DNA of 35,189 bases from contig CAJINV010000041.1 of NCBI GenBank assembly GCA_905178155.1, positions 36,014 through 71,202 of the forward strand, given 5' to 3'. This stretch comes from Amoebophrya sp. A120. Lineage: Eukaryota > Protista > Dinoflagellata. Of this stretch, positions 27,433 through 34,084 are shown piece by piece. The notes under the pieces were generated by a model. That model searched no databases and was not told the origin of the DNA. It saw only the letters and a program-made list of their open reading frames with translations. Within the stretch, counting starts at the first letter, position 1. Each line of letters starts with the position of its first letter. Made by a program: the position numbers and the translations under genes.

Positions 27433-30400
27433 ATGACAGAGATCAGCGTCAAAGTCGCGGTCCGGGTTCGGCCGTGGAATGACCGTGAGAAACTATCAAA
27501 TGCAAGTATGTCTGGGATTGGAAGTTTGCTACATTTGTCATGCATGTCTAACATGAATCAACAATCTGTGATGCATGGGCACCAAAAAGCCCTCTTATCT
27601 GTCATGCAAAATCGCAGTTTGTCATGCGTAATACGCAACACCTAGCAGCCCAAAAATTTCTCATGTTTGGCTGCGGATTGCAGGTGTGCGCCTACTGATT
27701 CACTTTTAGCATCACAACTCTCCAGACGAAGACATACTTGCTTTGCATAGAAGCAGATGCAGTGTAAACTCGCGGTGGAGATGCCGCCGACGTCGGGAAA
27801 CGAATATCAGAGGGCACATGTCTCCCTTCCCCTCATTCGTAGTGCAAAAAGGCCAAATCCTGTCGGAACTCTTTGGCTGTGCTTGCATGACAAGTTCTGG
27901 AAGCTGCCGCCCAAACTGCACTTTGCTCCGTGCGTGCGTTTGTAATGCTCAGACTGCATTTTTGAGGTGGTTTGTGATGCTACAAATGCATCCTTCCAAA
28001 TTACGGGGAGGGGGACGAGTTGTGTACTCGCATCACGAACTCCCGAATACCACCGTTCTGAAAGACCTGGACGACACGGGAGCGGAAAAACAATTCACGT
28101 TCGACTACTCGTTCTGGTCGCACGATGGTTTCGTGGAGGATGAGAAAACCGGGCTCACGGTGCCGGATGTTGCCAGTGTGGCCGCCGGCGGGGGCGGCGG
28201 CAAGAAAGGCAACAGCAAGCCGGTATACGCGAGCCAGCAGACGGTTTACGACAAGCTCGGCGTCACGGTGCTCAATAACGCGTGGGAGGGCTACCACTGT
28301 TGTCTATTCGCGTATGGACAGACCGGCGCTGGGAAGTCGTACTCCATGGTCGGGTACGGGGCGAACAAGGGCATCGTGCCGCTGGCGTGTGACGAAATCT
28401 TCCAGCGCATTGACAAAAACAAGGACAAGAACCTCGAGTACGACGTGGTCGTGTCCATGTTGGAAATCTACAACGAGAAGGTGCAGGACCTGCTGATTCA
28501 CCCCAACAAGCGGCCGGTTGGAGGTCTGGAAATCCGCGAGTCGAAGGAGCTGGGCGTGTACGTGGCAAACCTGACCAAGTGCAAGGTGACCAGCTACAAG
28601 GAGATCGACCAGATCATGGAGCAGGGAATCGGGAATCGCACCATTGGCAGCACGCTGATGAACGCCACCAGCTCGCGGGCCCACACGGTGCTCGGCATCG
28701 AGTTGAAGCAGCTCTCACACGTCGGCGACCGCGTCGGGACGAAGTATCCTGAGGAAAAACGTCCCTACCCCAGAGTTTTCATGCAGATTTGCAATGACAA
28801 GGAAATTTCTGATGCGCACACCCATGGTAGACATTTCCATTCGTGTTTTGGAATTTGTGATGCTATGAACAGGATACCCAGATGAATCTCTGATGCAGCT
28901 GCACTTGCTTAAGTACCTGCACTATGCTACGGAGTGCATTTTGTCATGCGTGACTCCCAGAACTCCTAGGTTTGTGTTGCAACATCCCCATCTTGACTCT
29001 GGTGTGGGGACGTTTTCACTCAGGATACGAAGATGTCCGTCATCTACCTGGTGGACTTGGCTGGCAGCGAGAAGGCCGCGAAGACGGGCGCGACGGGAGA
29101 CCGGCTGAAGGAGGGCATATCAAATGCAAAAATGTCTGGGTCGGGCAGATTGCGAGATATGTCATGCTATAATCTGGCATGATTCTGAACTCTGTATTGC
29201 GTGGCCGCACAGAGCTCCTCCTCCCTGCCATGCTAAAATGCAGCTTCTCATGCGGAATACGCAACTCAGAACCATGAACATAAACTTGTCATGCTTGGCG
29301 GCGCATTAAAGTGAGCTCACTATTCCCTTCCTTGCATCACAAGTTTCCCGACCCAGACATTTTTGCACTTGATAGGGCAGCGCGATCAACAAAAGCCTGT
29401 CCTGCCTGGGAAACGTGATCGAGAAACTGGCGGACGCGTGCAGTGGCTATGATTTGTAAAAACGTCCCCACACCATAGTTGTCATGCTAGTCTGCATGCC
29501 AAAAAAGTTTGTCATGTTGAGCGCCATGAGAGGCATTTTCTAGTAGTGTTTTGGAATTTGTGACGCTATAATCAGAATGATATACTAGATCTGTGATGCT
29601 GCTGAACTACGTAAATAGGATTACACTACGAGGAGACACTTGTCATGCCAAACGACCAAAGCTGGCTGATTTGTCTAGCAGATTTCCCATCTTGACTCTG
29701 GTGTGGGGACGTTTTTACAAATGATAGTGGCAAGGTCGCTCTGAAAAACATCGTGATTCCCTACCGGGACAGCAAGCTGACCCGGCTGCTGCAGAACGCG
29801 CTGGGAGGCAGCTCCTTCACCGTCATGATCTGTGCGATTTCGCCCGCGAGTAACAATTACCAGGAGTCGCTGTCCACGCTGCGGTACGCAGACCGCGCGA
29901 AAAAGATCAAAAACCAGTCCGTGGTCAACGAGGACCCGCAAGACAAGATCATTCGGCAGCTGCGCGAGGAAAACGCCAAACTCCGGGAAATGGTGGAGCA
30001 AGGGGGTGGCGTGCAGGTGGAAACGAAAACCGTCGAAAAGCTGGTGGTGGACGAAGCGGCCATGGGCAAGGCAAAGGAGAAACACGAGAAGGAGATCAAG
30101 GCGCTGGAGGACGCGCTGATCCAGATGCAGCAGGATTTCTTCAAAAAGTTGCAGGAGGAGAAGAACAAAAAGAAGGTCGAAACGGTGGTGGAGGAAAAAG
30201 AGATCGTCACCGTGAAGGAAATATCCTGAGTAAAAACGTCCCCGCCCCAGAGTTGTCATGCAGACTTGCAATGCCAGGAACATTTGTGATGCGCATCCCC
30301 ATGATAAGTAGGCATTTACAAGCGTGCTTTCGGAGTTGTAATGCTGTAACCAGGATACTAAGCACACGGATTTGTAATGCGGCTGTCCTTTCCAACCTGC

Positions 30401-33400: not shown

Positions 33401-34084
33401 TGGTAAATCTGCAACACAAATCCTGAAGTTTTGGGAGTTCTTCATGATAATTTTCTATATGTAGCGCAGTGCTGCTTCGCAATGGAACAGCCGCATCACA
33501 ACAACGCCTGCTTACAGCATTACAAATCTCAGAACACAACTACAAATTCGATTCCTCTCATGCGGATGTGCATTCCAAATACCCCCGTAATTGCAAATCT
33601 GCATGACAACTATGGGGTGGGTACGTTTTTGCACAGTATAGCGCGGGTCCCATGTTTTTCGCCGAACAGTCACGGACCAGTCCCGAGCTGAAGGGAAATA
33701 ACAAATCCCTGTATCCTGAGGAAAAACGTACGCACCCCATCCCCAGCAGATCTGTCGTCAAATACCTCTGCATGCTCGGTAAGTATCGTCTCGCATGCAA
33801 AAATCAGGCTTCGAGATATCTCAATTTGATGTGACGTGCTTGCATACGCTTAAAACGACGTCGCAGCGAGTTCAGATTTGTCGGGTCAGACACCTCAAAC
33901 TTTGTAATTGTCTTATCCAGATTTTCTCTCTTGACTCTGAGGTCGTTGTGTTTTTGCCCAGGATACTCCGGCGGACATGGCTAACGAGCAGCATTTCTTC
34001 GTCCCGTCGCCGGATCTCAACCGTAAGCGATACGAGGTTCTCGATAAAAATCGAGACCAGAGTCAGGCGTGCGTGATCTTGTAG
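27433..34084 (+). CDS. kinesin-3 family motor (KLP-6/KIF28-like): motor domain, FHA domain, coiled coil, tail, C-terminal CaaX; 12 exons, 1186 aa
   Basis: Exons 27433-27493, 27755-27804, 28040-28744, 29033-29117, 29380-29447, 29732-30221, 30514-31411, 31703-31757, 32075-32911, 33227-33358, 33646-33711, 33971-34084 total 3561 nt with no internal stop; motifs [94 protein letters not shown]. Confidence 0.96.
27494..27749. mobile_element. kinesin intron 1, introner family A
   Basis: DR gaaac/gaagc; [11 protein letters not shown]. Confidence 0.93.
27805..28034. mobile_element. kinesin intron 2, introner (family C-related, diverged)
   Basis: perfect DR acgaa; tcccttcccc/ggggaggggga inverted ends; [10 protein letters not shown]. 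Confidence 0.88.
28745..29027. mobile_element. kinesin intron 3, introner family B
   Basis: tatcctgaggaaaaacgtccc ... gggacgttttcactcaggata; perfect DR cgaag; [16 protein letters not shown]. Confidence 0.96.
29118..29374. mobile_element. kinesin intron 4, introner family A
   Basis: near-perfect 28-bp TIR; perfect DR gggca; [10 protein letters not shown]. Confidence 0.96.
29448..29726. mobile_element. kinesin intron 5, introner family B
   Basis: atttgtaaaaacgtccccacacca / tggtgtggggacgtttttacaaat; perfect DR gtggc. Confidence 0.96.
30222..30508. mobile_element. kinesin intron 6, introner family B
   Basis: tatcctgagtaaaaacg ... cgtttttcctcaggata; DR ggaaa/ggata. Confidence 0.94.
31412..31697. 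mobile_element. kinesin intron 7, introner family B
   Basis: interior closely similar to intron 5; DR atgct/acgct; QRML|ALEEKL. Confidence 0.92.
31758..32069. mobile_element. kinesin intron 8, introner family C
   Basis: tatcaaaaggaaaaatcccccctccccata ... tatggggtggggggatttttcactttgata; perfect DR ttgaa. Confidence 0.96.
32912..33221. mobile_element. kinesin intron 9, introner family C
   Basis: interior closely similar to intron 8; perfect DR agcag. Confidence 0.95.
33359..33640. mobile_element. kinesin intron 10, introner family B in reverse orientation
   Basis: reverse complement of its right end (tatactgtgcaaaaacgtacccaccccatagttgtcatgcagatttgcaat) matches left ends of introns 3, 5, 6; DR gagcc/gcgcg (both encode Gly-Ala). 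Confidence 0.9.
33712..33965. mobile_element. kinesin intron 11, introner family B
   Basis: tatcctgaggaaaaacg ... tgtttttgcccaggata; DR ccctg/ctccg; removal gives last exon ending ACVIL-stop. Confidence 0.9.

What the first reader, a model, noticed from the sequence alone, without database searches (positions are those of the whole stretch)
27433..34084. Intact kinesin-3 gene in which all 11 introns are TIR/5-bp-direct-repeat elements with no GT-AG ends
Seen: 11 insertions of 230-312 bp, nearly all TAT...ATA, each with inverted ends and a 5-bp flanking DR (cgaag, gggca, gtggc, ttgaa, agcag, acgaa perfect). Removing element + one DR copy gives a stop-free 1186-aa kinesin with all motor motifs rejoined. 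Established: this is the anatomy of a DNA-transposon insertion (TIR + TSD), and IR/DR-bounded non-canonical introner introns are known in the parasitic dinoflagellate Amoebophrya, where to my knowledge the removal machinery is unresolved. Inference: a dedicated system precisely reverses transposon insertions, so the gene stays functional.
Basis: partly seen in the sequence, partly recalled or inferred. Interest (0 to 1): 0.92.

Follow-up and report, generated by a model that had tools for sequence, protein, structure and literature searches.

The report
Hairpin-ruler introns in parasite kinesin
This intact kinesin gene of the marine parasite Amoebophrya carries 11 transposon-like inserts of an already described intron type, at least nine of them absent from an RNA-like assembly, and the cut points here and in two annotated neighbour genes all fit one rule, one base before and four bases after a predicted hairpin, which likely explains why such inserts leave proteins unharmed.

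Summary
The 11 elements are there. Removing each plus 5 nt gives a 1186-aa protein identical to an annotated Amoebrophrya-type record, CAD7975040.1 from Amoebophrya sp. A120. These are A120 introner elements (Farhat 2021). An RNA-like contig lacks exactly introns 3-11, while DNA-like contigs keep the elements.

The added result is the cut rule. All 34 of 34 junctions in three annotated proteins fit intron = N|TAT-N7-AAA...TTT-N7-ATA|N4; neighbouring registers fit 25 of 34. The 1+4 overhang equals the 5-bp target duplication, perfect in 90 of 114 outside copies. Copies sit in both orientations. In 11 elements whose direct repeats have decayed to chance, the outer ~14-bp stem is kept. So the hairpin, not the repeat, likely sets the cuts. 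Farhat's text calls the borders variable or unknown; I could not see its figures. The enzyme is unresolved: adapted spliceosome ~55%, nuclease plus ligase ~35%. This scan noted a similar element before in another dinoflagellate genome (e1-7693921, untested here).

The parts
27433..34084 (+). Kinesin-3-like gene, 12 exons, 1186 aa (motor 11-382, FHA 536-615, KIF1B domain 879-923); = CAD7975040.1 / GSA120T00025965001
27005..34543 (+). Extent of the RNA-like contigs (5' and 3' untranslated parts included)
   Evidence: run X1 records 1 and 2; near-zero depth outside
27493..27753 (+). Intron 1 (element 27494-27749, family B; repeats GAAAC/GAAGC); ends CT..AG in the 1+4 register
   Evidence: RNA-like piece ends at 27492, upstream repeat base 4 kept
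27804..28038 (+). Intron 2 (element 27805-28034; repeat ACGAA perfect)
   Evidence: RNA support only indirect
28744..29031 (+). Intron 3 (element 28745-29027, family A; CGAAG perfect)
29117..29378 (+). Intron 4 (element 29118-29374, family B; GGGCA perfect); splits the motor motif EG|SAINKSL
29447..29730 (+). Intron 5 (element 29448-29726, family A; GTGGC perfect)
30221..30512 (+). Intron 6 (element 30222-30508, family A; GGAAA/GGATA); joint seen directly, 30220 to 30513
   Evidence: record 2
31411..31701 (+). Intron 7 (element 31412-31697, family A; ATGCT/ACGCT)
31757..32073 (+). Intron 8 (element 31758-32069, family C; TTGAA perfect); 96% identical over 312 bp to a copy in L040
32911..33225 (+). 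Intron 9 (element 32912-33221, family C; AGCAG perfect)
33358..33644 (+). Intron 10 (element 33359-33640; GAGCC/GCGCG); a family A copy inserted in the reverse orientation
   Evidence: removal within the exact 861-nt sum of introns 9-11
33711..33969 (+). Intron 11 (element 33712-33965; CCCTG/CTCCG)
839..3098 (+). 3' part of neighbour gene P0121 (aa 843-1075), 6 introns of the same geometry, most with decayed repeats
17826..26116 (+). Neighbour gene P0122 (1205 aa), 17 introns of the same geometry, family B copies in both orientations

Best explanation
The 11 inserts are Amoebophrya A120-type introner elements, likely non-autonomous DNA transposons with a 5-bp target duplication, that stay in the DNA and are missing from the RNA-like assembly; their ends are predicted to pair into a ~14-bp stem that likely sets the cuts one base before and four bases after it, most likely through an adapted spliceosome. 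SHOWN: anatomy, presence in DNA-like contigs, exact-length absence of introns 3-11 from an RNA-like contig, both orientations. SHOWN ON ANNOTATED PROTEINS: one register fits 34 of 34 junctions. INFERRED: the pre-mRNA stem U-A-U-N7-A-A-A / U-U-U-N7-A-U-A is the signal, and the repeat is not read. Because 1+4 equals the 5-bp duplication, a new insertion in either orientation would be removed without changing the protein, which would let the family spread through exons. After insertion, the repeats and the inner stem decay while the outer stem is kept by selection. LEAST CERTAIN (about 0.55): catalysis by the U2/U5/U6 spliceosome, with the hairpin replacing U1 and U2AF. The 5' end reads N-U-A-U, a GUAU-like site relaxed at +1, and an A at -7 or -5 inside the stem would be the candidate branch point.
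For: RNA-like contig of run X1: gaps of 153, 0, 52 and 202 nt between laid pieces equal removal of 834, 292, 608 and 861 nt, exactly the element+5 sums; total 3806 = 3806. At 4 of 4 visible imperfect repeats (introns 1, 6, 7, 11; intron 10 not shown) the upstream copy's mismatched base is in the RNA, which limits three of them to cuts 0 or 1 base before TAT (intron 6 also allows -1). DNA-like X5 contigs run through element borders; in three exon stretches the depth equals that of the element-bearing contig (50.8, 44.4, 42.1). Register 1 reproduces all three annotated proteins, 34 of 34 junctions; registers 0 and 2 fit 25 of 34 each; chance under a random register 0-5 is about 1e-12. The three junctions with one possible donor (2041, 19036, 22694) all read N-TAT...ATA-N4. 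With lengths fixed by the proteins, ATA falls exactly at -7..-5 in 26 of 34 and in 0 of 34 at offsets of 1-3. Repeat identity 106 of 170 versus terminal motif 365 of 408 (Fisher p 3e-13). In the 11 most decayed: repeat 25%, motif 88%, spacer pairing 43 of 77 versus 20 by partner swap, inner stem 40 of 110 versus 33. Reverse orientation: intron 10 versus 6 scores 144 reversed against 32 forward, null maximum 30; 27 sense versus 34 antisense of 107 outside copies, 39 unclear and 7 dropped. TSD: 90 of 114 perfect at 5 bp, at most 6 at any other length from 2 to 9. For the spliceosome: +2 U in 33 of 34, +3 A in 34 of 34; 9 of 9 predominant A120 non-canonical sites in Farhat Table S4 have T at +2, as do 9 of 9 in A25; 83 of 89 spliceosomal proteins and U2/U4/U5/U6 found in A120, and 15% of its canonical introns share the IR/DR layout; one annotated GT-AG intron here (23371-23529) partly fits the layout; Fritillaria precedent (review).
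Against: Register 0 is excluded only by annotated proteins (9 junctions), which come from BLAT transcript alignments; I saw no reads there. The 34 junctions come from three genes of one contig, and I placed element starts by eye at the nearest TAT-like motif, which is partly circular on the 5' side. X1 is only guessed to be RNA, and contigs drop rare forms. Introns 1-2 are supported by the annotated protein and a consistent contig length, not by a shown joint. 389 joints were not shown, and two exon stretches of X5 carry 6-12 units of unexplained extra depth, so rare DNA excision is not excluded. Against the spliceosome: no AG, no pyrimidine tract (0.51 at the 3' end versus 0.47 at the 5' end), branch-like YTRAY in only 13 of 34, the U-A-U is predicted to be paired, a branch point 4-6 nt from the 3' end would be unusually close (recalled), and the euglenid analogues are released as circles. 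No transposase was found.
Confidence: 0.8

Rival explanations
1. Same hairpin rule, but the cutting is done outside the spliceosome by a structure-specific endonuclease plus RNA ligase (RNase III-like, or tRNA-splicing-like with RtcB), releasing linear or circular introns.
For: Cuts are staggered at the base of a stem; either orientation works; no AG, pyrimidine tract or consistent branch motif; U1 snRNA not detected in A120; Euglena introns have a similar stem-plus-offset code, 5'-N3CDG...CH'GN5-6|R, and form circles; these enzymes are proposed for euglenozoan introns.
Against: Net 3' overhang is 3 nt, not the 2 nt typical of RNase III (recalled); no tRNA-like or Rfam structure (0 matches); the N-U-A start in both strains resembles a spliceosomal 5' site; no candidate enzyme was looked for here.
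Confidence: 0.35
2. The direct repeats guide removal (repeat pairing or template switching), so exactly one copy is lost: the first reader's 'reversal of insertion'.
For: 6 of 11 kinesin repeats are perfect; 5 nt beyond the element is always lost.
Against: Junctions with 0-1 of 5 repeat matches (6 of 34) are annotated with the same length rule, and the retained 5-mer is a 4+1 hybrid of the two copies. A reverse-transcriptase switching artefact would not hit introns 3-11 together, including 3-of-5 repeats.
Confidence: 0.04
3. The elements are cut out of DNA in a somatic genome, like ciliate internal eliminated sequences.
For: TA-rich ends, TIRs and short direct repeats resemble such elements (recalled); X1 is only guessed to be RNA.
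Against: X1 coverage stops at transcript-like ends (27005, 34543) with no added repeats seen; DNA-like contigs cross the borders unbroken; the 1+4 asymmetry follows the direction of transcription for elements of both orientations.
Confidence: 0.03
4. The gene is a pseudogene, or is rescued by nearby GT/GC-AG sites.
For: Raw RNA runs X8 and X9 gave no kinesin exon reads, but these were added by species label only.
Against: Spliced RNA-like contig with exact lengths; 1186-aa open frame, GC3 0.83; motor 65-68% identical to 10 homologues with P-loop and switch motifs intact; no compatible GY-AG pair.
Confidence: 0.02
5. The elements are self-splicing RNAs.
For: Strong predicted folding.
Against: Interiors differ between families and work in either orientation; only the outer ~14 bp is conserved; no Rfam match at E up to 0.1.
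Confidence: 0.03

Closest known systems
Amoebophrya sp. A120 introner elements / non-canonical introns (Farhat et al. 2021, PMC7789003)
   Same: Same organism label on the protein record; IR = TAT + 7 variable + at least 3 A; 3-5 nt (example 5 bp) direct repeats; about 240 nt; repeated families; hairpin model; RNA-supported removal.
   Different: Nothing in kind. The paper's text and legends call the splice positions variable or unknown and see no dinucleotide signature; here one fixed 1+4 register, repeat independence and two-way orientation are shown on 34 junctions. Its Figs 3 and S19-S25 could not be seen and may show part of this.
Euglenid nonconventional introns (PMC12501133; review PMC11282704)
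   Same: TIR stem joins the ends; cuts at fixed offsets outside the stem with a longer 3' overhang; slidable direct repeats; proposed MITE origin; unknown machinery.
   Different: Code is N3-CDG...CH'G-N5-6|R, not N-TAT...ATA-N4; released as circles; unrelated lineage, so convergent.
Fritillaria borealis non-canonical introns (through review PMC11282704 and passages of PMC13326754)
   Same: MITE-derived introns with TIR and TSD, no GT-AG.
   Different: Preferred ends AG-AC/AG-AT; U1 conserved; attributed to the U2 spliceosome.
Micromonas/Aureococcus introners (review PMC11282704)
   Same: TIR+TSD elements removed without changing the protein.
   Different: They use canonical sites, one from the element and one from the duplication; here no AG is needed, so any target sequence works (no target consensus).
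Kinesin-3 motors KIF13B/KIF1A (PDB 6a1z, 8utn)
   Same: N-terminal motor, FHA, KIF1B domain.
   Different: No C-terminal PH or CAP-Gly domain detected by Pfam; no tree made.

Membership tests
Amoebophrya A120 introner element | IR starting TAT, 7 variable nt, then at least 3 A | tested here: met
   11 of 11 kinesin elements start TAT; across 34 junctions the motif positions match 365 of 408; definition
Amoebophrya A120 introner element | 3-5 nt direct repeat at the borders | tested here: met
   48 of 55 positions match in the kinesin
Amoebophrya A120 introner element | Ends other than GT-AG | tested here: met
   0 of 11 at any compatible register
Amoebophrya A120 introner element | Removal supported by RNA | tested here: met
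   Introns 3-11 by exact lengths in an RNA-like contig; 1-2 indirect
Amoebophrya A120 introner element | Repeated, in families | tested here: met
   Families within the window; 134 loci with one 21-nt TIR word in contigs JACKZZ01, scan cut at its limit
MITE (non-autonomous TIR DNA transposon) | TIRs, fixed-length TSD, short and non-coding | tested here: met
   5-bp TSD perfect in 90 of 114 copies; stop codons in 32 of 33 forward frames of the 11 elements
MITE (non-autonomous TIR DNA transposon) | Cognate autonomous transposase | not testable with these tools
   No genome held; none in 5 window proteins scanned; Farhat found none in A120; TIR elements with integrase-like ORFs reported in A120
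MITE (non-autonomous TIR DNA transposon) | Empty orthologous site with one target copy | not tested
   No orthologous DNA fetched; homologous proteins have no extra residues at junctions 1, 3, 4
U2-type spliceosomal intron | GT/GC donor and AG acceptor | tested here: not met
   Only +2 U and +3 A are kept; 3' dinucleotide is free
U2-type spliceosomal intron | Branch motif and pyrimidine tract | tested here: inconclusive
   YTRAY in the last 70 nt of 13 of 34 versus the first 70 nt of 6 of 34; no pyrimidine excess
U2-type spliceosomal intron | Lariat intermediate, snRNP dependence | not testable with these tools
   Needs bench work or raw reads
Euglenid nonconventional intron | 5'-N3CDG...CH'GN5-6|R signature | tested here: not met
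   Ends are N-TAT...ATA-N4
Euglenid nonconventional intron | Terminal base pairing fixes the cut offsets | tested here: met
   (works like it; not a member)
Ciliate-type eliminated DNA | Joined form present in DNA | tested here: not met
   DNA-like contigs cross the borders; rare forms not excluded
Kinesin-3 | N-terminal motor followed by FHA; KIF1B domain | tested here: met
   PF00225, PF00498, PF12423 above cut-off; PF16183 below cut-off; best PDB hits KIF13B/KIF1A
Kinesin-3 | Placement in the kinesin-3 clade | not tested
   No tree made

The most novel reading that the evidence does not exclude
A120 runs a splicing system outside the spliceosome, a hairpin-measuring nuclease and ligase that cuts 1 base before and 4 bases after a U-A-U-N7-A-A-A stem. 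Its ruler is matched to the transposase's 5-bp stagger, so that every insertion, at any sequence and in either orientation, becomes a scarless intron; most of the genome's apparently signal-free introns would then obey this one code.
Probability: 0.3. Interest if true: 0.85.

Novelty: already known. Interest (0 to 1): 0.5.

Why it matters
The gene and the element type are already in the literature. What matters is the rule. The published account leaves the borders of these tens of thousands of introns as variable or unknown. If the 1+4 register holds genome-wide, the apparent chaos of splice dinucleotides is one structural code; the exact intron ends needed to look for lariats or circles are predicted; and scarless intron gain is explained by a match between splice offsets and duplication length. 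Together with Euglena's similar stem-plus-offset code it would be a case of convergent structure-guided splicing, and it makes the open question of the machinery directly testable.

Tried and rejected
No whole genome is held for this window, so no genome-wide test and no search for snRNAs, ligases or transposases. The run search found no listed holder on record as RNA ('no RNA holder listed'); X1-X4 are guessed RNA. Raw-read RNA runs X8 and X9 gave no kinesin exon reads (85 and 2 reads, all partial, on element ends): not used as evidence. The TIR word had 0 matches in viral contigs. Rfam: 0 matches. Pfam on P0121, P0122 and three window ORFs: nothing above cut-off. The representative search returned only P0122. 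No long autonomous element among the 114 paired copies: of the six pairs of 481 bp or more whose ends were printed or listed, those printed mostly lacked a duplication and look like mis-pairings of neighbours; not followed further. None of the 134 loci overlapped window exons. dN/dS not computed: no orthologous DNA. Removal of a whole downstream copy (register 0) or whole upstream copy (register 5) rejected: 25 and 12 of 34 compatible. Earlier-finding look-ups by place and by sequence returned nothing.
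Full report
Observation. The repeat match is 48 of 55 positions, p about 4e-22. All fold with paired ends, z -1.7 to -9.3. Removing element+5 nt gives a stop-free 1186-aa frame; +2 and +8 are also stop-free, so other evidence had to fix the length. No compatible register gives GT-AG or GC-AG.

Identity. An exon search returned a 100% identical 1186-aa protein named Amoebophrya sp. 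A120, CAD7975040.1 / GSA120T00025965001.1. My splice matches it at every residue for registers 0 and 1, where register k means the intron starts k bases before TAT; other registers give 2-13 differences. Pfam gives kinesin motor, FHA and KIF1B domains; the best solved relatives are KIF13B and KIF1A. The motor is 65-68% identical to 10 homologues, and junctions 1, 3 and 4 align without gaps. Exon GC3 is 0.83. The gene looks functional.

RNA versus DNA. Four of 10 listed runs were laid. In X1 (RNA by guess), one 3806-nt contig has pieces 28143-28738, 29726-30220, 30513-31408, 32069-32906 and 33970-34543. The missing lengths are 834, 292, 608 and 861 nt, exactly the sums predicted for introns 3-5, 6, 7-8 and 9-11. 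A second contig covers 27005-27492 and has 177 further bases not shown; the spliced model would carry it to 28165, a 23-nt overlap with the first, which is consistent but indirect. Depth is near zero outside 27005-34543. In X5 (DNA-like), contigs cross the exon-element borders and span elements 1 and 11 whole. In three exon stretches the depth equals that of the element-bearing contig; two others carry unexplained extra depth, and 389 joints were not shown. X8 and X9 gave no exon reads. Removal is therefore at the RNA level, with rare DNA forms not excluded.

Known kind. Farhat et al. 2021 (PMC7789003; I read the abstract, sections 10, 11, 12 and 25, passages of 16 and 32, supplement parts 2 and 4 and Table S4 rows; figures not held) describe A120 introners with IR = TAT + seven variable bases + at least three A, 3-5 nt direct repeats, about 240 nt, a hairpin model, U1 snRNA undetected and 83 of 89 spliceosomal proteins present. 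The finding is a case of this, in the same annotated organism.

The cut rule. At the four imperfect repeats visible (introns 1, 6, 7, 11), the RNA carries the upstream copy's base, leaving registers 0 or 1 as the common choice. Two neighbours are also annotated A120 proteins: P0121 (6 introns in the window) and P0122 (17). Register 1 reproduces all three proteins, 34 of 34 junctions; register 0 fails at 9 and register 2 at 9. The three junctions with a single possible donor all read N-TAT...ATA-N4. With lengths set by the proteins, ATA lands exactly at -7..-5 in 26 of 34 (two of three bases in 34 of 34) and never at offsets of 1-3. Limits: three genes only; starts placed by eye; exclusion of register 0 rests on transcript-based annotation, not on reads I saw. 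Genome-wide support is indirect: all nine predominant A120 non-canonical sites in Table S4 have T at +2.

What is read. Repeat identity is 106 of 170, terminal motif identity 365 of 408. In the 11 junctions with at most 2 of 5 repeat matches, the motif stays at 88% and the variable spacer still pairs (43 of 77 against 20 for swapped partners), while stem positions 16-25 are near chance (40 of 110 against 33). Selection thus appears to keep about 14 terminal base pairs and not the repeat. Intron 10 is a reversed copy of the family of introns 3, 5, 6 and 7. Family B occurs both ways within P0122, and 27 sense versus 34 antisense among 107 outside copies (39 unclear, 7 dropped; the strand caller was right on 22 and unclear on 12 of the 34 junctions it was trained on). 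The interior therefore carries no strand-specific signal. Among 114 paired copies from contigs JACKZZ01, 90 have a perfect 5-bp duplication, with no target consensus. One plus four equals five, so a fresh insertion anywhere would restore the protein (inference).

Machinery. I commit to an adapted U2-type spliceosome at about 0.55: invariant +2 U/+3 A, T at +2 in both strains' listed sites, retained snRNPs, shared IR/DR layout in 15% of canonical introns, and the Fritillaria precedent. A nuclease-ligase route is about 0.35: no AG, no pyrimidine tract, weak branch motif, paired 5' site, and circles from the euglenid analogues. Repeat-guided removal, DNA excision, self-splicing and pseudogene are each 0.04 or less.

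Novelty. Searches and a word search of Farhat's text for orientation, branch and lariat found no statement of a fixed register, of orientation independence or of repeat dispensability in Amoebophrya. [quoted passage not shown] S23's legend places IRs 1-5 nt from the sites. The figures themselves were not visible and may show part of the rule; subscription papers (Roy 2023, Henriet 2019, Guminska 2021) were seen only as citations or through reviews. Other papers seen: PMC12130899, PMC9860276, PMC12005148, PMC11453091, PMC12787238, PMC13326754, PMC12621601 (passages); PMC12501133 (passages and Discussion); PMC11282704 (passages and section 6). Family labels A, B and C are mine. The RNase III overhang, branch distance and ciliate features are recalled.

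Verdict. Real, RNA-supported and already known in kind; the added value is a precise, testable splice code. Interest 0.5.

Noticed in passing
window 19036-19818: A 783-nt annotated intron contains a whole second element (19535-19799, repeats GGCTC/GGTTT) ending 19 nt from its 3' end; either a nested insertion that would need inner-first removal, or a missed small exon.
   Followed up: partly
window 1478-1489, 22146-22155, 25469-25483: Annotated exons of only 12, 10 and 15 nt between hairpin introns, fitting intron-defined recognition.
   Followed up: no
window 23371-23529: The only GT-AG intron among 34 also starts G-TAT and sits in the 1+4 register with a weak stem: a possible hybrid between the two intron types.
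   Followed up: partly
window 27494-33965, inside elements: Motif TGT(C/G)ATGC or its reverse occurs 28 times in the 11 elements and 0 times in the exons, 73 times in the window; possibly transposase or chromatin-protein binding sites.
   Followed up: no
L001-L134 (contigs JACKZZ01): The same TIR family is abundant in this assembly; element 8 is 96% identical over 312 bp to a copy in L040. Whether it is the same strain was not determined.
   Followed up: partly
window 29117-29151 (run X8): 84 raw RNA reads carry a family B end joined to one other flank, i.e. an unspliced copy at another locus, while no read lies on kinesin exons.
   Followed up: no
window 31786-31998: Element 8 has a second TAT-like inner start and related copies differ only in the middle (joints 31793-31995 with other letters between), suggesting internal-deletion derivatives of a longer element.
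   Followed up: no
window 15540-16100 and 25860-26350: By reading, two genes share similar 3' ends and downstream sequence (paralogues); further unannotated-here elements lie at 6439, 8509, 9024, 10002, 13953, 14255 and 14901.
   Followed up: no
window 1-300, 7700-8200, 17090-17800, 10428-10445: GC-rich tandem repeats, a 60-bp repeat, and two TTTAGGG-like units, seen by reading.
   Followed up: no
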